Origin: a virus
Lineage: Duplodnaviria; Heunggongvirae; Uroviricota; Caudoviricetes
Strand: one strand, 5' to 3'
DNA: 6,295 bases
Virus record (IMG/VR): IMGVR_UViG_2671180298_000001
Made by a program: the position numbers and the translations under genes. The notes under the pieces are model-generated. The model was not told the origin of the DNA. It was given only the letters and a program-made list of their open reading frames with translations, and did not search any database. Below, one piece after another: positions 1 to 6,295 of the stretch (positions are counted from its first letter, which is position 1; every line of letters starts with the position of its first letter).

Positions 1-1748
1 CGAATACTGATGCCGGAAGCAGCCTTTTTGGTCACAATCACCGTACAGTCGGTGATATTGCCTGCCCCCTGATTGCCTTTCTGGAAAATCTTAAACTCCA
101 GAGTGACGCTTCCCCTGCCACTCGGCATATCAATAACCGCACTGTAACTACCGGGAATGGCCCCTTTAGTTTCTCTGGATGCGATTAATACGCCGTTTTT
201 GCGAACTTCAAAACCATAACCCGTGTATCTTGTACCTCCCGGGTTATTACCACTTCCCGGATCGCTATACGCTATTCCGTTAAAGATAATGGGCGGAATA
301 ATAATCTGGCGGTCAAAGTTATGATCATCGCTGATGGTGACTGTAACCGTACCGTTTGGTGTTTCCGTGTTACCCCACGTACCGACTTTTTTCGGGAAGG
401 CTTTTGATACAGCTTTAACGAAATCCCCTCTGACCTGGGTCGCCTCCAGCATGCCCTTAATCGTACAGTTCTGGTTAATCGTGACATTGTTGAGCGTTCC
501 TGAGTTCGCATTCACACTACCACTGATATCCGCATTTTTAGCGGTCAGCTTTCCGTCTGATGTCAGGGAAAATACCGGAGGACTGCCACCGCTGGTAATG
601 GTGGGGGCCGTCAGGCGTTTCAGGAACACTTCATTCATGAATATCTGATCGCCCTGACCAACAAACATCGGCTTTGTGTTGCCATTCGCAGGATTAATCA
701 TCGCAATCCTGTCTGCTGCCAGCAGCACCTGACTCTGCATGCCGTCAGGGGTGTTCTCAATACCGGCACCGATACCCGCAATATAAAGGCGTCCGTCCTG
801 CATCTGCTGCAGCTTCACTGCCCACATGCTGTTCAGGTTATTATTTGTATCAACCTGAACCTTCTGTATCTGCTGGATTGCCGCACTCTGGTCTTCCAGT
901 TTCTTATTGACGGTCTGTGTTATTTCATTGCTGACATCCGTTATGGACGTCCTGATTTCAGTCAGGTCAGGCGCAAGCTGACCGTTATCAATCTGCGTCC
1001 ACAGCTCCTGAGCCAGATGGGTTTTCCCTATCTCGCCTTTGAAAAAATCCAGATAGCCTGATGCATCATCACTCGGCTGACCGACAGCCTCCACGAATGC
1101 CGATTTGCCAACGGTGTTCACACTGCGAACGTAAAAATAATAATCATGGCCCGGTTTGATATTGATACTGGCGGCTATCCAGTACAGTGCCGTACCAAGA
1201 TAACGCGCGCTGGTTTCAACCTGCCTGATATCCGCAATCCGTTTTTCCGAGAACCAGAACTCAAACTGTACCGTCGGGTCATAAACCGCAAGATGCGGCG
1301 TGGCGGTTATCTGAAAATAGCCCGGCGTCAGCTCAATCCGCGACGGCGCTGCCGGTGCGGCAATCCGGAACGATACCGACGCCGGATCGCCCTGCTGCCC
1401 CCACGCATTTACTGCCCGGACTGTCAGCCTGTAGTTCCCCAGAGCCAGTTGTGTGAAGCGGTAAGTGGTTTCCGTCGTCCGGGCCGTGCTGACCAGCCGC
1501 TCACGGCCGTCATCCGCTGCCACGGTCAGGCGAAGCAGGAAGCTCACGCCCTTCACCACCTTCGGCGTGTCCCAGCGCGCCAGCACCTGGTATTCCCCGC
1601 TGTCTGCGGTGACTTCTGCGGTCAGGTGCTGCACCGCTGGCGGCGTGACACCATTTACCGTGCCGCTCTGGTCGCCGTCAAAGTGCGCCCCGTTATCCAC
1701 GATGGCCTCTTTTTCCGGTAACCGGGGCAAATGATGAGTATCGTCCTG
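1..1748 (-). pseudogene. J: 3' portion (about 582 codons, running past the window start) of a lambda J-type host specificity / central tail fibre gene; no ATG start and no N-terminal half
   Basis: Minus-strand frame translated by hand is open from the codon after the V stop (1748) to position 1 with no stop. It reads ...[133 protein letters not shown]...[25 protein letters not shown]...[14 protein letters not shown], which matches my memory of the fibronectin-III-like middle region and C-terminal part of lambda gpJ. First in-frame ATG is only at 827..825. The ORF track misses it because there is no stop inside the window. Confidence 0.8.
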
Positions 1749-2492
1749 TTAACCTGCGGCGCTGACAGTCACCGCAGCCACAGCCACAAAATTCCCGTCA
1801 GCGGTCATGCCCACAATGCTGACACTGCCCTGCTTCACGCCTTTCACCGTGGCTACAAGCCCGTTCAGGGTCACCGTGGCAGTCTGTGGATCTGACGAAT
1901 GCACACTGATCGCTTTGTCACTGGCTCCGTCAGGTTTTACTGTAAAGGTCAGCGTGGTGGTTGCTCCCACTTTTACACTGGCAGATGCCGGTGCCACCGT
2001 CAGCCCGGTAACGCTCACTGTTTCAGTGCCTTCCTCTGCCAGATACGGACGCCCCACACCGCTGATTTTCACAGTGCGGGTCATCACGTCTTTTGAGGCA
2101 ATGGTTTTACCCAGTGAACTCAGCCAGCCACGGAAAACATCAACAGTGCCGTTGGGATATTTGATACGAAACGCGCAGACTTCACCGGAGTCGAACAACT
2201 GAACCAGTTTTTTCTGCCCGCTGTCACCCGGACGCCAGGCCAGCGTCGCCGAAGTATCACCGACTGATTTCTGCCCCTGGGTTGTCGTTTTCCAGTCTGC
2301 ATCTTCATCATCGAGATAAGTGTCATCTTCTGCATCAGCGGTCATTTCGCCAGGTTGTAGATCCTTCACCATCGCAAGACGCAACCAGTCAGTGTCCGAC
2401 AAAGGGTTCGCAAACGCATCGCCGTTGCCGGTATACATCCAGAACGTCGTTCCCGCACCTTTCGTTTTTGCCAGTGGATTTGGTGTGGTCAT
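1749..2492 (-). CDS. V: major tail tube protein, lambda gpV-like, with C-terminal Ig-like (Big_2) domain; 247 aa
   Basis: Protein MTTPNPLAKTKGAGTTFWMYTGNGDAFANPLSDTDW...YPNGTVDVFRGW... aligns along its length with remembered lambda gpV (246 aa). Start chosen at ATG 2492..2490, preceded by AAGGAGGTG with about 5 nt spacing; the track ORF (2567) begins 25 codons upstream inside the U gene. Stop TAA 1751..1749. Confidence 0.9.
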   Translation of the reverse strand: MTTPNPLAKTKGAGTTFWMYTGNGDAFANPLSDTDWLRLAMVKDLQPGEMTADAEDDTYLDDEDADWKTTTQGQKSVGDTSATLAWRPGDSGQKKLVQLFDSGEVCAFRIKYPNGTVDVFRGWLSSLGKTIASKDVMTRTVKISGVGRPYLAEEGTETVSVTGLTVAPASASVKVGATTTLTFTVKPDGASDKAISVHSSDPQTATVTLNGLVATVKGVKQGSVSIVGMTADGNFVAVAAVTVSAAG

Positions 2493-2502
2493 TACCACCT
2501 CC

Positions 2503-2916
2503 TTAATTCGTGTACGTGATCTGGTACGTGATTTCCGCCATCGCCCAGGTGGCCATCTCATTATCACGTTGATAGTTAAAACCGAGTGGGATCAGGGTGT
2601 CGATGAGTCCGGAAAGTGCCGGTACATCATTCAGGGCCGGGAAAATGGTGCTCTCCATCCACATATCCAGCTCTGAATCCGGTGCCTGTGCCCGGATGAA
2701 GACAGCAATATGCAGAACAGCCTGCCAGTCATCTTCATCCGTCATTTTTCCGGTGTACTGAGCATCACTCAGCCACACCGCCACGGCAGGCAGTTCCTGC
2801 GCATCAACAAATGCCGGAAGCCCGTCAAAAAACGTGGCGCTGTCTCCACACTGTTCCCGAAGGCGTGCCAGTACGACCTGGCGGATTTGTGTATGTCGAT
2901 TCATCGGGTCAGCCAT
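2503..2916 (-). CDS. U: tail terminator protein, lambda gpU-like (alternative start at 2904 would give 133 aa)
   Basis: ...ATFFDGLPAFVDAQELPAVAVWLSDAQYTG...APDSELDMWMESTIFPALNDVPALSGLIDT...ITYQITY matches remembered lambda gpU (ATFFDGRPAVFDE...PAVAVYLTGAEYTG...PDSELDAWMESRIYP...LTYVITYEM). ATG 2904..2902 overlaps the Z stop as ATGA, as in lambda Z/U; ATG 2916..2914 has GAGG only 2 nt upstream. Start uncertain between the two. Confidence 0.85.
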   Translation of the reverse strand: MADPMNRHTQIRQVVLARLREQCGDSATFFDGLPAFVDAQELPAVAVWLSDAQYTGKMTDEDDWQAVLHIAVFIRAQAPDSELDMWMESTIFPALNDVPALSGLIDTLIPLGFNYQRDNEMATWAMAEITYQITYTN

Positions 2917-3479
2917 AACCTCAGTTGTTGTTTCAGTGCATACCCCAGCTGTTTCGGCATTTCCGCAGCAATGATGCGGTCGCGGGCATCTTCAAATGCC
3001 TGTGTCAGCGGTCCGGACAGAGGGATTTTCACCACATCAATGGGGTAACGATTTTTGCCATCAATACGCCGCATCACATGCCAGCGACCATTCGCCAGTT
3101 GCTGAATAAACGCATCCCGGAAAAGATATTTACCCACCTTCAGCACGCTGCCACGGTACTGCAGTTTTCCACCACGCCGGGTCAGTCTGACCCGGGCGGT
3201 CCCCAGCTTAATGGCAGGCAGATTGCCCCGGTTAACGCGGATCCTGGCCGTCATTTTTCCTGACGGACTGGCTTTAAACACCCGGACACGCTGACGTACC
3301 AGTTTCAGGGGTATCCCTTTCACCTGGTTATCTCCCGCAACGGTATTCCCGGCAACCTGCCGGGTGGCAACCGAGACCGCTTTCTGTGCCACACGGTTTA
3401 TCGCCCATGCGCTGGCCTGTGGCACCATACGGGTATCAAGGCTGTTCAGATTGCGGATGGCATTCTCAAGCCCCTTCAT
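2901..3479 (-). CDS. Z: minor tail protein, lambda gpZ-like (tail completion); 192 aa
   Basis: 192 aa, the same length as lambda gpZ, basic protein, located between the FII-like and U-like genes exactly as in lambda. SD-like AGAGGTG about 5 nt upstream of ATG 3479..3477. Assignment is by position and size more than by remembered sequence. Confidence 0.75.
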   Translation of the reverse strand: MKGLENAIRNLNSLDTRMVPQASAWAINRVAQKAVSVATRQVAGNTVAGDNQVKGIPLKLVRQRVRVFKASPSGKMTARIRVNRGNLPAIKLGTARVRLTRRGGKLQYRGSVLKVGKYLFRDAFIQQLANGRWHVMRRIDGKNRYPIDVVKIPLSGPLTQAFEDARDRIIAAEMPKQLGYALKQQLRLWLTR

Positions 3480-3490
3480 CCCACACCTCT

Positions 3491-3766
3491 TTACTCAATA
3501 AAGATCATTGGCTTACCGTTAAAGCGTTCATGCCGTGTGACCGTCCAATGTTGTCCGTCATAAACAACGCGATCCCCGCGCCGTGGGCGGTATCCCGAAG
3601 AAAACACCACCAGAGAGACCGCAGGTCCGGACAAAGCATTCAGCTCTGCCAGTGTTTCTCCCGGGATCACAGTCATATCGACATCATTAATCGAGGCTGT
3701 CTTTCCCATCTTTCTGACCGTGATCGCATCCATACGCGCTGCCAGCCGGGAAAAGGGATCAGACAT
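3491..3766 (-). CDS. head-tail joining protein, lambda gpFII-like; 91 aa
   Basis: N-terminus MSDPFSRLAARMDAITVRKMGKTASI resembles lambda gpFII MADFDNLFDAAIARADETIRGYMGTSATI, and it sits directly upstream of Z. Start ATG 3766..3764 overlaps the stop of the preceding gene by 8 nt (translational coupling); no separate SD. Confidence 0.65.
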   Translation of the reverse strand: MSDPFSRLAARMDAITVRKMGKTASINDVDMTVIPGETLAELNALSGPAVSLVVFSSGYRPRRGDRVVYDGQHWTVTRHERFNGKPMIFIE

Positions 3767-4082
3767 TGAGTTTTACCGGCACTTCTTCTGCACTGGTTCC
3801 GGCATCTGCCCAGACAACCCCGACCAGCGGATCAGAGCCGCTGTTAGTCAGCTGAACTTTTCCGGACTTCAGATAAACCTTCTTACCCGTTTTCATGTCA
3901 TCCGTTTTCAGCTTAGGCAGCATAAACACACCTTCGGTCAGGCCGTCGCCTGTTTCACCCTGTGGAATATCGGTCAGCGCCACCGCAAAAACATCACCCA
4001 CCTGCACCAGGTCTCCGCTGCTGATGGCTGCACTGGCAACAATCGCCACCGTTTTTCCTTCTTCTACAAAATTCTTTGCCAT
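3759..4082 (-). CDS. small acidic phage head protein of the DUF2190 type (family often mislabelled as RecA/RadA recombinase in prophage annotations); 107 aa
   Basis: Protein MAKNFVEEGKTVAIVASAAISSGDLVQVGDVFAVALTDIPQGETGDGLTEGVFMLPK... Sits in the position lambda uses for D/FI, between capsid and FII. Start placed at ATG 4082..4080 with GGAG 6 nt upstream; the track start at 4127 lies inside the terminator hairpin region and is rejected. Confidence 0.6.
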   Translation of the reverse strand: MAKNFVEEGKTVAIVASAAISSGDLVQVGDVFAVALTDIPQGETGDGLTEGVFMLPKLKTDDMKTGKKVYLKSGKVQLTNSGSDPLVGVVWADAGTSAEEVPVKLNV

Positions 4083-4095
4083 AACTGTCTCCGCA

Positions 4096-4114
4096 CAGCC
4101 CCGTTCAGGGGCTG
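4096..4114 (-). other. perfect 7-bp GC-rich stem-loop (CAGCCCC-UGAAC-GGGGCUG on the transcript) ending 2 nt before the SD of the DUF2190 gene
   Basis: Plus strand 4096-4102 cagcccc and 4108-4114 ggggctg are exact reverse complements separated by 5 nt. No U-run follows in the transcript, so not an intrinsic terminator. Confidence 0.5.
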
Positions 4115-4125
4115 ATTTCAGGTAC

Positions 4126-4145
4126 AAAAAAAGCCCTTACGGGCC
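4126..4145 (-). terminator. candidate rho-independent terminator (probably partial) about 24 nt after the capsid stop
   Basis: Minus-strand transcript reads GGCCC-GUAA-GGGC followed by UUUUUUU (plus strand caaaaaaagcccttacgggcc). The stem is only 4-5 bp, so likely weak or attenuating. Confidence 0.4.
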
Positions 4146-4168
4146 ATCAGAGTTGTTGTCTGCGACGT

Positions 4169-6127
4169 TTACGCCGTACATTTCACCAGACCGCGGTGAT
4201 CAACTGGCGCGACACCGGCGTCAATACGCACTTTCGTTGTCACGCCATCCACACTGAAGCCCTCCATCTGATCAATATATGGCGTATCCACACCGTTGAG
4301 ATAAGCCACTTCAATCGTATCGGAGCCTTTTGACGCAGCCAGGTAGAAGGTGGTCTGGCTGTTATCATCAAGACGGGGCTCTGCAATAACGGTCGCAAAA
4401 TCTTTCACCGGGTTAATAATACCGGCGTTAATGTCAGCCCCCTTGACACTTGAGGAGCGAATGACCTGGTTAGCAACAGACTCCATCGCCGTCGGTACCA
4501 GTACGAACGCAGGACGAATATTCAGATGACGCTCCCCCTCTTTCTGAACGCGCATCAACTGGCGGGCTTTATCCAGCGATGCCACGTCCATTGCAGCGCT
4601 CTCCAGTACGTTTGCATGTTTCGCTTTATCGAACAGACTTACATTATCTGTGGAGATTTTCGGGTTAGACGTCAGAATGGCATAAACCAGATCGGCAATA
4701 GTGGATTTCGCCGCACGGCCCAGTTTCATCGGGACATCGGTCAGCATATTCAGATCATCATTGATAATGGCCTGACGGGTGATACTGAACAGCTCGCCAT
4801 AGGTCGCCAGTGCAATAGTGGCCTGTTTATCTCCGGTGGTGACGTATTTATATTCCGCCCCTTCACGCACCTGACGCAGAGCACTGAAGCCCCCCATACC
4901 CACACGATGGGCAATTTTAAAATCAGACAACTGACCTTTCCGCGTCCACTGTTCATAGGTTTCAGGGGCATCTTCCCAGCCCTGCAGAATGGCTTTGTTC
5001 GCAACATCCAGCAGAATATTACCGAAGTCAGACGTACTGTGTGTGAACGCCGCACCGACCATCTGCATCGGGTTATAACTGGAAACCCCAATACCCCGTT
5101 CAGTCAGTGACATACGGGCATATTCACGCAGGGTCATCCCGTTGTAGACATTATCACGTTCGGTTTTTTCAAATCCGGCACGCGCCATCAGCGCCTGGCG
5201 GATCCCGTCCCCCACAAAATTACCGTTTCCGGCATAAATATGAGCCGGGGTATTTTTATTGGATGGCGTGGACTCGCGCCCCATCTCGTTCAACAGCTTT
5301 TCGCGGGCCTGCTCCAGCGAACATTCAGGATCGGCAAGACACTGAGCCTGCAGCGTCTGATAACGCCCGCCAAACATGGCAAACAGATCATTAATACCGT
5401 TTACACGCGCTTTTTGCTCTGCCAGTACCTGCGCACGGATACTGTTTTCATCCACCACGGGTGCTGCTGCCTGCACTGGCGTCCGGGAGGCTGCAGGTTC
5501 ATCATCCTGTACGCGTGGAGCACTGTTGCGTGGCGGAGTAATCATGTTTCGAATGGATTCCGGCATCTTTTTAAATTCCTCTGTACGTTTTGACTGAATA
5601 CATGCCATTGCCTTAACGGCTGGCGTCACCTGATCAGCAAATCCCTGTGCCAGACATTCGGCACCGGACATCCAGGTCTCATCCGCCAGCATGGCAGCAA
5701 TTTCATCGGTGGTTTTCCCGGTTTTCTGTGCATAAGCGGGTAACAGAACCGCCTCAACCTTATCGAGCAGGTCGGCATAGGTGCGCATGTCCTCCGCATC
5801 ACCGCCCGTAAAGCCAAATGGTTTATGAATCATCATGAAGGTGTTTTCCGGCATAATGACCGGGTTTCCCACCATCGCAATGACCGACGCCATTGACGCC
5901 GCCACACCGTCGACATAAACGGTAATGGACGCACCATGTGTTTTCAGCGCATTAAAAATGGCGATGCCTTCAAAGACATCGCCACCCGGTGAATTAATAT
6001 GGAGATTAATGTGGGTGATATCGCCCAGTGCATTCAGATCACTGATAAACTGCTTCGCTGTAACACCCCAGAAACCAATCTCGTCATAAATATAAATATC
6101 CGCGTCACTCTGGTGACCAGCCTGCAT
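4169..6127 (-). CDS. prohead protease (ClpP / S14 family) fused via a scaffold-like linker to an HK97-fold major capsid protein; 652 aa from the chosen start
   Basis: N-terminal part has ClpP hallmarks: IYIYDEIG...INSPGGDV...VDGVAASMASVIAMVG (serine motif, Ser codon 5896..5894) and MMIHKPFGF (histidine, codon 5827..5825). Middle is a low-complexity, helix-prone linker (ENSIRAQVLAEQKARVNG...LEQAREKLLNEMG). C-terminal ~330 aa look like a phage major capsid protein. Start set at ATG 6127..6125 (MQAGHQSDADIYIYDE), 13 nt after the stop of the upstream gene; the track start at 6292 would overlap that gene. Confidence 0.85.
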   Translation of the reverse strand: MQAGHQSDADIYIYDEIGFWGVTAKQFISDLNALGDITHINLHINSPGGDVFEGIAIFNALKTHGASITVYVDGVAASMASVIAMVGNPVIMPENTFMMIHKPFGFTGGDAEDMRTYADLLDKVEAVLLPAYAQKTGKTTDEIAAMLADETWMSGAECLAQGFADQVTPAVKAMACIQSKRTEEFKKMPESIRNMITPPRNSAPRVQDDEPAASRTPVQAAAPVVDENSIRAQVLAEQKARVNGINDLFAMFGGRYQTLQAQCLADPECSLEQAREKLLNEMGRESTPSNKNTPAHIYAGNGNFVGDGIRQALMARAGFEKTERDNVYNGMTLREYARMSLTERGIGVSSYNPMQMVGAAFTHSTSDFGNILLDVANKAILQGWEDAPETYEQWTRKGQLSDFKIAHRVGMGGFSALRQVREGAEYKYVTTGDKQATIALATYGELFSITRQAIINDDLNMLTDVPMKLGRAAKSTIADLVYAILTSNPKISTDNVSLFDKAKHANVLESAAMDVASLDKARQLMRVQKEGERHLNIRPAFVLVPTAMESVANQVIRSSSVKGADINAGIINPVKDFATVIAEPRLDDNSQTTFYLAASKGSDTIEVAYLNGVDTPYIDQMEGFSVDGVTTKVRIDAGVAPVDHRGLVKCTA

Positions 6128-6140
6128 CCTGAACCAGGAA

Positions 6141-6295
6141 TTATTCTTCGGACTGGTCGTCGGTGTGCTGCGGCTCCTGTCGTTTCGTTGCGGCACTGCT
6201 GCCTCCTTTATCACTGGCCGGATCGGTATCAAATACCAGATCCAGCTTGCGGTTTTCATCAATTTCGGCCTTGCGCTGAGAGATCCCCTCATAAT
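6141..6295 (-). CDS. 3' end of upstream gene, probably the portal protein (partial, continues beyond window end)
   Basis: A different minus frame is open from the window edge to TAA at 6143..6141 and reads ...YEGISQRKAEIDENRKLDLVFDTDPASDKGGSSAATKRQEPQHTDDQSEE*, a hydrophilic acidic tail typical of a real C-terminus. The third frame has a stop at 6291..6289. Portal identity is inferred from the conserved portal-protease-capsid gene order only. Confidence 0.5.
   Translation of the reverse strand, partial: YEGISQRKAEIDENRKLDLVFDTDPASDKGGSSAATKRQEPQHTDDQSEE

What the first reader, a model, noticed from the sequence alone, without database searches (positions are those of the whole stretch)
1..1712. 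Orphan J fragment could still be translated from a GTG with a Shine-Dalgarno
On the minus strand AAAGAGG (1712..1706) lies 5 nt upstream of an in-frame GTG (1700..1698), 16 codons after the V stop. If used, this would yield a protein of at least 566 residues made only of the FN3-like repeats and the receptor-binding C-terminus of J, without the tail-tip hub. Such a fragment could act as a free receptor-binding protein or be a substrate for recombination with incoming phages. This is speculative.
Basis: inference. Interest (0 to 1): 0.4.

Follow-up and report, generated by a model that had tools for sequence, protein, structure and literature searches.

The report
Leftover half of a phage tail-tip gene
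This is the back half of a lambda-type tail-tip gene (J) left in a broken prophage by a 7.95-kb deletion; it does have a possible start signal, but that signal is ordinary J coding sequence, looks weak, and nothing shows that the fragment is made or used.

Summary
On the minus strand, AAAGAGG (1712..1706) lies 5 nt before GTG (1700..1698). The GTG is in frame with the TAA of tail-tube gene V (1751..1749), 16 codons downstream. The open frame runs off the window and is 567 aa in matching contigs: two Ig/FN3 domains, the fibre shaft and the receptor-binding domain of gpJ, with no hub.

The fragment comes from a 7,950-bp deletion (G, T, H, M, L, K, I and J codons 1-592). It joins the loop of the V-G terminator hairpin to J codon 592/593 through a 2-nt microhomology. 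The same joint occurs in three public read-run assemblies, where a gene caller already predicts this exact 567-aa protein.

The start signal was not created by the deletion. It encodes E-K-E-A-I-V in every intact J examined, and its GAGG core is lost to a synonymous GAA in 24 of 80 relatives. Such motifs occur about once per 0.6 kb on this strand. The site is predicted to be much harder to unfold than six real starts here (14.5 versus 6.6-9.9 kcal/mol), and no promoter-like site precedes it.

Weak translation during late transcription is possible but unproven. This is an ordinary prophage-decay remnant. Side observation: four independent deletions end within 10 nt of this J position.

The parts
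1..1700 (-). J' open reading frame read from the GTG. It has 566 complete codons in the window; the last codon and the stop lie beyond position 1. The product is 567 aa and corresponds to residues 599-1165 of a 1165-aa gpJ.
   Evidence: Translation. 100% DNA identity over 1..1720 with the intact gpJ of strain PK6. The exact protein is P0121, found in contigs L016-L018. Pfam domains.
1698..1700 (-). Candidate GTG start. It is Val599 of intact gpJ, 11 residues before the first Ig/FN3 domain, in the hub-to-FNIII linker.
   Evidence: The linker is described in PMC11101478. The GTG is invariant in 80 of 80 close relatives.
1706..1712 (-). SD-like AAAGAGG (5/6 match to AGGAGG, 5-nt spacer). It is formed by J codons AAA GAG G(CC), encoding K595, E596 and A597.
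   Evidence: anti-SD duplex -5.8 kcal/mol. The synonymous variant AAAGAAG occurs in 24 of 80 relatives. The site is predicted to be paired in a local hairpin.
1719..1720 (.). Deletion joint. TA is the 2-nt microhomology shared by the loop of the V-G hairpin (..GGTTA|TCCGGGG..) and J codon 592 (..ATGTA|CCGGAA..). Relative to the UTME-8-type parent, 7,950 bp are missing (L005 4056..12005): G, T, H, M, L, K, I and J codons 1-592.
   Evidence: Alignments of the window with PK6 J and with UTME-8.
1719..1728 (-). Remnant (GCCCCGGTTA) of the terminator-like hairpin that follows V in intact relatives. The 3' arm and the T6 tract are lost.
   Evidence: The parent hairpin GCCCCGG-TTAT-CCGGGGC-TTTTTT is scored as terminator-like (L005 12015..11998) and folds as such. 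No terminator-like site lies between V and J' in the window.
1749..2492 (-). Intact major tail tube gene V (247 aa, ATG 2492 preceded by AAGGAGG). Its TAA stop (1751..1749) is in frame with J', 48 nt before the GTG.
   Evidence: Pfam Phage_TTP_12 and Big_2. The identical protein is very common in intact prophages.

Best explanation
Window 1..1720 is the 3' half of a lambdoid tip-attachment gene J in a defective prophage. A single illegitimate recombination event with 2-nt microhomology deleted 7.95 kb. It joined the loop of the terminator-like hairpin just after tail-tube gene V to J codon 592/593, removing the tail-assembly genes G, T, H, M, L, K and I and the whole hub of J. The AAAGAGG-N5-GTG motif is not a signal made or kept for expression. 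It is the ordinary coding sequence for K-E-A-I-V in the linker between the hub and the first FNIII domain of J, and it happens to be the first SD-preceded in-frame start after the joint. The V terminator was destroyed, so J' would be co-transcribed with V whenever the late operon is on, and some ribosomes could start at the GTG. That would give a cytoplasmic 567-aa hub-less J able in principle to trimerise and bind a receptor. The site is predicted to be weak, and there is no sign of selection for it. The fragment is most likely a recent, still undecayed pseudogene. Its realistic biological role is as a stretch of homology (together with lom and stf downstream) that incoming lambdoid phages can recombine with. 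Shown here: the anatomy, origin, domain content, rarity of the joint, and non-conservation of the SD. Inferred: co-transcription, weak initiation, and lack of function.
For: The J side is 100% identical to intact gpJ of PK6 over 1..1720. The V side is 99.9% identical to the intact UTME-8 prophage from 1715 onwards. The joint and the loss of the terminator are shown. The same joint occurs in three Logan assemblies, ERR6160922-4. It is absent from 5,426 complete E. coli genomes, the GTDB species representatives, JGI metagenomes and IMG/VR, so the event is young and rare. The motif is present in intact J genes. Its GAGG core is lost to synonymous GAA in 24 of 80 relatives. Its frequency is at chance level. 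Unfolding the region -15..+12 costs 14.5 kcal/mol, against 6.6-9.9 for the six real starts in the window and a median of 12.1 for all start-like codons. The SD duplex is -5.8, against -11.6 and -13.4 for capsid and V. There is no promoter-like site on the minus strand of the whole window. Another fragment broken at this site is frameshifted (E2), and PGAP annotates the equivalent CUPS03 fragment as a pseudogene. A further lesion, an IS10-family end inside the portal gene, is present in the window's genome. There is no PADLOC hit.
Against: The ORF is intact over 567 codons, and a gene caller accepts the GTG. The SD is a 5/6 match at ideal spacing and falls in the top 10% of start-like codons by duplex energy. 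No terminator separates it from V. The RNA-fold z-scores around the site are not significant, so the predicted occlusion is soft evidence only. Intactness says little either way, because the deletion is recent.
Confidence: 0.75

Rival explanations
1. One reading: J' is a genuinely expressed stand-alone central-fibre and receptor-binding protein, started at GTG 1700. It would have a function, for example as a decoy that occupies the receptor after lysis, or as a dominant-negative subunit that co-trimerises with the full-length J of a related phage.
For: SD, spacing, GTG and an intact 567-codon ORF. The ORF is called by a gene finder. The terminator between V and J' is lost. All trimerising and receptor-binding modules are retained (PMC11101478). 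Free gpJ C-terminal constructs bind LamB.
Against: The SD is not conserved at the synonymous site, and the fragments broken at the same site in E2 and L019 carry the weak GAA form. The RBS is predicted to be poorly accessible. No promoter-like site precedes it. The sequence shows no signal peptide. The joint is known from only one lineage. A comparable fragment is frameshifted. There is no similarity to known defence proteins.
Confidence: 0.12
2. J' reaches the proteome as a V-J' fusion, through readthrough of V's TAA, which is in frame with J'.
For: V's stop and the J' frame coincide, with 16 sense codons and no further stop between them.
Against: UAA is the most efficient stop codon in E. 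coli (general knowledge). No readthrough or recoding signal was found (Rfam none). A shared frame is a 1-in-3 coincidence.
Confidence: 0.02
3. The V|J joint is an assembly chimera and does not exist in any genome.
For: It is absent from all large public collections searched. J is a multi-copy repeat that often breaks assemblies: many contig-end partial J proteins appear.
Against: The same joint was assembled independently from three sequencing runs, on contigs of 22, 15 and 5 kb that continue into lom, stf and the chromosomal gene prfC. The window is a fourth, slightly different copy with an IS at 6276. A 2-nt overlap is not how assemblers join contigs.
Confidence: 0.03

Closest known systems
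Phage lambda tip attachment protein gpJ (PDB 8iyk, 8xcj and others; Pfam Ig_J, Ig_J_second, Phage_Tail_Tip, Ig_GpJ_C)
   Same: Residues 599-1165 of a 1165-aa J that aligns with lambda gpJ without gaps over 1-836. It has the same FNIII-1, FNIII-2, helical shaft, beta-prism fibre and Ig-like receptor-binding domain (PMC11101478). The AAAGAGG-N5-GTG motif is also present in lambda-type J sequences.
   Different: It lacks all hub domains (Phage-tail_3, FNIII-A_GpJ; residues 1-598) and all partner genes, so it cannot be part of a tail. The receptor-binding domain has the same fold family, but its sequence is diverged from that of lambda gpJ (phmmer E 4e-23) and from that of 'A8 gpJ' (E 1e-31), so the receptor is unknown.
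Recombinant C-terminal gpJ fragments (gpJ713; MBP-gpJ)
   Same: Hub-less J C-termini that are soluble, trimeric and bind the receptor on their own (PMC11101478; PDB 8xcj, 9wca; PMC555588). They show what the 567-aa product could do if it were made.
   Different: Those are engineered and over-expressed from strong signals, and they start at residue 713. This fragment starts at 599 (it also keeps FNIII-1) and depends on an accidental, apparently weak start site.
Truncated or fused J relics in defective E. coli prophages (annotated as 'phage tail tip domain-containing protein', 'DUF1983 domain-containing protein' or pseudogene)
   Same: The same kind of object. Examples are the 671-aa J relic that represents protein cluster P0010; that 90%-identity cluster has 9,528 members of mixed lengths and also contains P0121; the T|J remnant in FDAARGOS_433; fusions of HTH_36, Nu1 or portal to J; CUPS03 and E2.
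   Different: This particular joint (V terminator loop to J codon 592/593) is found only in one lineage, and the fragment is not fused to an upstream ORF.
Phage T5-type split tail tip (separate hub protein pb3 and FN3-bearing fibre protein pb4); from memory, not tested here
   Same: A stand-alone protein made of FN3 domains plus a central fibre is a natural architecture in some siphophages, so a hub-less J is not structurally absurd.
   Different: No homology or synteny with that system was tested. Here the split is an accident of deletion, and the hub half is absent altogether.

Membership tests
gpJ / tip attachment protein J (complete, functional) | N-terminal hub domains (Pfam FNIII-A_GpJ and Phage-tail_3, residues ~86-498 of intact J) | tested here: not met
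   Intact PK6 J has them. The 567-aa product has none, and J homology starts at codon 592.
gpJ / tip attachment protein J (complete, functional) | C-terminal Ig_J, Ig_J_second, Phage_Tail_Tip and Ig_GpJ_C domains | tested here: met
   All four are above the Pfam cut-offs (E 8e-42 to 1e-25). DNA is 100% identical to an intact J.
gpJ / tip attachment protein J (complete, functional) | Position in a tail-tip module, preceded by H, M, L, K and I and followed by lom/stf | tested here: not met
   lom and stf follow it in L016, but G, T, H, M, L, K and I are deleted and V is the upstream neighbour.
Independent, expressed protein-coding gene | In-frame start codon with an SD at 4-9 nt | tested here: met
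   AAAGAGG, 5 nt, GTG.
Independent, expressed protein-coding gene | Start signal conserved beyond what the encoded amino acids require | tested here: not met
   The GAG to GAA synonymous change destroys the GAGG core in 24 of 80 close relatives and in the E2 and L019 fragments.
Independent, expressed protein-coding gene | Ribosome-binding site as accessible as those of neighbouring genes | tested here: not met
   Opening energy is 14.5 kcal/mol, against 6.6-9.9 for six real starts. This is soft evidence, because the fold z-scores are not significant.
Independent, expressed protein-coding gene | A promoter, or co-transcription with an expressed operon | tested here: inconclusive
   No sigma-70-like site lies on the minus strand. 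The terminator after V is lost, so read-through from the late promoter is plausible. The late promoter and Q lie outside the window, and an IS10-family element interrupts the portal gene upstream.
Independent, expressed protein-coding gene | Direct evidence of transcription and translation | not testable with these tools
   No RNA-seq, ribosome profiling or proteomics is available here.
Defective-prophage gene remnant (pseudogene) | Truncated relative to full-length homologues, with a definable deletion joint | tested here: met
   Codons 1-591 are missing. The joint lies at 1719/1720 and the deletion is 7,950 bp.
Defective-prophage gene remnant (pseudogene) | The element has lost genes essential for its life cycle | tested here: met
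   All tail-assembly genes between V and J are gone. The portal gene is interrupted by an IS in the window's genome.
Defective-prophage gene remnant (pseudogene) | Accumulated inactivating mutations inside the remnant | tested here: not met
   There are no stops or frameshifts, and it is 100% identical to an intact allele. This is consistent with a recent deletion rather than with selection.

The most novel reading that the evidence does not exclude
The hub-less J' is switched on with the late operon when a related phage is induced or superinfects and supplies a compatible Q antiterminator. It then co-trimerises with that phage's full-length J through the shared shaft and fibre and poisons tail-tip assembly, or it coats receptors after lysis. 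In that case the finding that four independent deletions (V terminator, nanS-p, an HTH_36 replication gene, a ydaS-like gene) all end within 10 nt of J codon 592/593, at the hub/FNIII linker, would reflect selection or a site-specific break that generates such stand-alone fibre proteins.
Probability: 0.04. Interest if true: 0.6.

Novelty: already known. Interest (0 to 1): 0.14.

Why it matters
It matters little as it stands. Truncated J genes are among the commonest debris of lambdoid prophages in E. coli, and annotation pipelines already either call them as proteins or flag them as pseudogenes. The case does show that an SD-like motif plus a start codon just after a deletion joint can be plain coding sequence of the parent gene and not evidence of a new gene. 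If the fragment were expressed, it would be a natural version of the engineered gpJ receptor-binding fragments and a candidate interference or decoy factor. The recurrent breakpoint at the hub/fibre linker would then be worth a systematic survey. Whether or not it is translated, the fragment, together with lom and stf, is a ready substrate for host-range exchange with incoming lambdoid phages.

Tried and rejected
(1) Assembly artefact. Rejected: the joint is present in three independent run assemblies on contigs that reach chromosomal genes.

(2) The deletion created the start signal. Rejected: both the SD and the GTG lie on the J side of the joint and are present in intact J genes.

(3) A conserved internal start inside J. 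Rejected on present data: the SD core varies synonymously in 30% of 80 relatives. The invariance of the GTG is uninformative at 97-100% protein identity.

(4) A small RNA or other structured element at the joint. Rfam finds nothing and the fold z-scores are unremarkable.

(5) A known defence protein. No PADLOC hit.

(6) Finding the source via the V protein. This failed because V is too common (13,070 index blocks, all shown contexts intact). The exact 567-aa product did lead to the source-like contigs.

(7) Testing whether J codon 592/593 is a general deletion hotspot. Counts of 100-nt segments in complete E. coli genomes (8,353 and 7,216 places upstream, 10,152 and 9,344 downstream) looked like a step. 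A 200-nt query across the site showed this to be a sensitivity artefact: 4,488 of 4,515 records have a full-length best match. In samples taken with an anchor sequence rather than with the joint (120 J copies from IMG/VR; 120 from metagenomes), 10 copies had internal 5' ends and none was at this site. A hotspot is therefore not established.

(8) Literature. The lambda ribosome-profiling paper (PMC3718152) is not held. No paper mentions the three run accessions. A remembered report that lambda recombined with a J relic of E. coli B could not be verified in the library.

Full report
**What is in the window.** The minus strand carries part of a lambdoid late operon. In order it holds the ClpP-protease/major-capsid fusion gene (GTG 6196 to 4169), a DUF2190/cement gene, a Gifsy-2-type head-tail gene, Z, U, and the tail-tube gene V (ATG 2492 to TAA 1749). 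J sequence follows directly. In intact relatives such as strain UTME-8, V is followed by G, T, the tape-measure gene, M, L, K, I and a 1165-aa J.

**Check of the observation.**
- AAAGAGG lies at 1712..1706, followed by the spacer CCATC and GTG at 1700..1698.
- V's TAA is in the same frame, with 16 sense codons between it and the GTG.
- The frame stays open to the window edge (566 codons). One more codon and the stop lie outside the window, giving a 567-aa product.
- Pfam places Ig_J at 12-116, Ig_J_second at 118-220, Phage_Tail_Tip at 274-402 and Ig_GpJ_C at 431-566, with no hub domain.
- The GTG is Val599 of intact J. It sits 11 residues before FNIII-1, in what the lambda structure paper calls the elongated linker between the hub domains and FNIII-1 (PMC11101478).

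**Origin of the fragment.** Positions 1..1720 are 100% identical to the intact gpJ of strain PK6 and others. Positions 1715..6276 are 99.9% identical to the UTME-8 prophage.

In the parent type, V is followed by GCCCCGG-TTAT-CCGGGGC-TTTTTT. The scan scores this as terminator-like (7 G-C pairs, T6), and it folds as predicted. The window reads GCCCCGGTTA|CCGGAAAAAGAGG. The hairpin loop has therefore been joined to J codon 592/593 (..ATGTA|CCGGAA..) through the shared TA (1720..1719), with loss of 7,950 bp.

The hairpin's 3' arm and T-tract are gone, and no terminator-like site remains between V and J'.

**How common the joint is.** The 38-nt joint is absent from 5,426 complete E. coli genomes, from one genome per GTDB species, from JGI metagenomes and from IMG/VR. 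The exact 567-aa protein does exist in the 15-billion-protein collection as P0121. It was called on three Logan contigs from runs ERR6160922, -923 and -924.

Those contigs match the window over 1..6276 without a mismatch and carry the same joint. They continue into lom, a 1252-aa stf and the chromosomal genes prfC and osmY. The joint is therefore real, rare and recent.

**Is the start signal meaningful?**
- *Origin.* Both the SD-like motif and the GTG lie on the J side of the joint. They are the codons AAA GAG G.. ATC GTG of ..[10 protein letters not shown].., present in intact J genes. They are also present in what are most simply lambda control-DNA contigs in unrelated assemblies.
- *Conservation.* In 80 IMG/VR relatives with 97-100% protein identity, the GAG that supplies the GAGG core is GAA in 24. 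It is also GAA in two other J fragments broken at the same place (E2 and L019). Nothing beyond the amino-acid sequence is conserved.
- *Frequency.* On this strand, 10 start-like codons have a match of at least 5/6 to AGGAGG at spacing 4-9, and three of them are real starts. About 10% of all start-like codons pair with the anti-SD at least as well (-5.8 kcal/mol). A second such site (GTG 1547) lies in the same frame.
- *Accessibility.* The SD and GTG are predicted to lie in a local hairpin that is native to J mRNA. Freeing -15..+12 costs 14.5 kcal/mol. The six real starts in the window cost 6.6-9.9, and the median over all start-like codons is 12.1. The SD duplexes of capsid and V are -11.6 and -13.4. 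A simple thermodynamic comparison puts J' one to two orders of magnitude below V. This is soft evidence, because the folds are not better than shuffled controls.
- *Transcription.* No sigma-70-like promoter site is found on the minus strand of the whole window. Transcription would have to come from the late promoter outside the window.

**What the product could do if made.** The fragment keeps every module that forms the lambda central fibre (FNIII-1/2, helical shaft, beta-prism, receptor-binding domain).
- A lambda construct starting at residue 713 forms a complex with LamB that was solved by cryo-EM (PMC11101478; PDB 8xcj, 9wca).
- An MBP-gpJ fusion blocks LamB channels from the outside (PMC555588).
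- The receptor-binding domain here belongs to the same fold family, but its sequence is diverged from lambda's, so the receptor is unknown.
- The N-terminus ([13 protein letters not shown]..) has no signal peptide. Any extracellular action would therefore need lysis.

It is well supported in general: lambda acquires DNA from the defective prophages Rac, Qin and DLP12 at measurable frequencies (PMC3945230).

**Verdict on the interpretation.** The anatomy is right, and translation from the GTG cannot be excluded. A gene finder already predicts it, and the lost terminator makes co-transcription with V likely during late expression. But the signal is an accident of J's coding sequence, looks weak, and shows no trace of selection. 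NCBI's pipeline calls the equivalent fragment in strain CUPS03 a pseudogene, and another fragment broken at this site is frameshifted. The prophage lacks all tail-assembly genes. In the window's genome it also has an IS10-family element in its portal gene. The best reading is an ordinary, recent decay remnant. A functional free receptor-binding protein remains speculation.

**Side observation: a recurrent breakpoint.** Four different deletions end within 10 nt of each other at J codon 592-596.

| Joint | Left-hand partner | Hybrid sequence at the joint |
|---|---|---|
| Window and L016-L018 | V terminator loop | GGTTA\|CCGG |
| E2 and at least nine other poultry isolates | nanS-p/DUF6645 esterase gene | GGTTAC\|CGG |
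| L019/L020 | HTH_36 replication-type gene, in-frame 784-aa fusion | GGGTA\|CCCG |
| CUPS03 | ydaS-like gene | ATTACGAAA\|GAGG |

In each case the intact partner sequence carries an imperfect match to J's GTACCGGAAAAAG. These cases were found by searching with this joint or with this fragment, so ascertainment is biased.

In samples taken with an anchor sequence rather than with the joint, none of 10 internal J 5' ends fell at this site. Only 27 of 4,515 E. coli records lack a full-length match across the site. A hotspot, or selection for stand-alone fibre proteins, is not established. The coincidence remains unexplained.

**Novelty and interest.** Truncated and fused J relics are abundant in public data, and the exact predicted protein is already in a public collection. 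The finding is real but ordinary, so interest is low.

Noticed in passing
window 6276..6295: The last 20 bases (CTGAGAGATCCCCTCATAAT) diverge from the otherwise identical contigs L016/L017 and from all E. coli matches. 19 of them (6277..6295) are found, followed by the same sequence in both loci, just beyond the 3' end of the annotated ISVsa5 (IS10/IS4-family) transposase gene in L004 and in IMG/VR locus L111. The window's genome therefore has an IS10-family element inserted in the portal gene, with its transposase gene running in the same direction as the late genes.
   Followed up: partly
window 1712..1720; L004 ~6076..6094; L019 ~5625..5640; L002 ~6705..6715: Four independent deletion joints (partners: V terminator, nanS-p/DUF6645, an HTH_36 gene, a ydaS-like gene) end within 10 nt of J codon 592/593. 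Three of them fall in the same GTA|CC. Each partner carries an imperfect match to GTACCGGAAAAAG. Anchor-based samples do not show a general hotspot, and the coincidence is unexplained.
   Followed up: partly
window 4132..4145 (minus strand): A terminator-like hairpin (GGCCCGTAAGGGCT followed by T7) lies directly after the capsid-fusion gene. It is the same kind of element as the hairpin that follows V in intact relatives. These may be attenuators or mRNA-stabilising hairpins after the two most abundant structural genes.
   Followed up: no
window 1..1720 versus 1715..6276; L003, L005, L016: The two halves have different closest relatives. The head-to-V module is 99.9% identical to UTME-8, whose own J is only 94.8% identical. 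The J part is 100% identical to PK6, whose prophage has a different (lambda E/D-type) head module but sits next to prfC/osmY, as L016 does. The parent was therefore a mosaic of these modules, or the deletion involved two prophages.
   Followed up: partly
proteins P0005, P0006, P0007, P0032, P0033: Public data contain many in-frame fusions of unrelated phage N-termini to J C-termini: HTH_36 fused at J residue 488 and at 592, Nu1 at 529, and portal at 370. Gene callers report them as single long proteins.
   Followed up: partly
L225-L249 (GTDB representative genomes): The J anchor sequence occurs in assemblies of unrelated genera (Neobacillus, Kitasatospora, Pseudomonas, Shewanella, Bradyrhizobium and others). 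The contigs often have ~1x coverage or are ~48.4-48.5 kb long, which is most simply lambda control-DNA contamination of those assemblies. This was not verified further.
   Followed up: no
L227 (Shigella flexneri SFBU0723) and L237 (E. coli ECMA0423), at the position equivalent to window 1709..1714: In these records the A5 run of GGAAAAAGAG is A4 or carries small indels, which would frameshift J exactly at this spot. This is either homopolymer sequencing error or real slippage.
   Followed up: no
L280 (human gut metagenome contig) position 1; H146 (strain FCI56): One metagenome contig begins exactly at CCG, the first J base after the joint position, which suggests an assembly branch point there. 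In FCI56 the J match begins about 24 nt further downstream, next to tail fibre assembly and C40 peptidase annotations. This is possibly another nearby joint.
   Followed up: no
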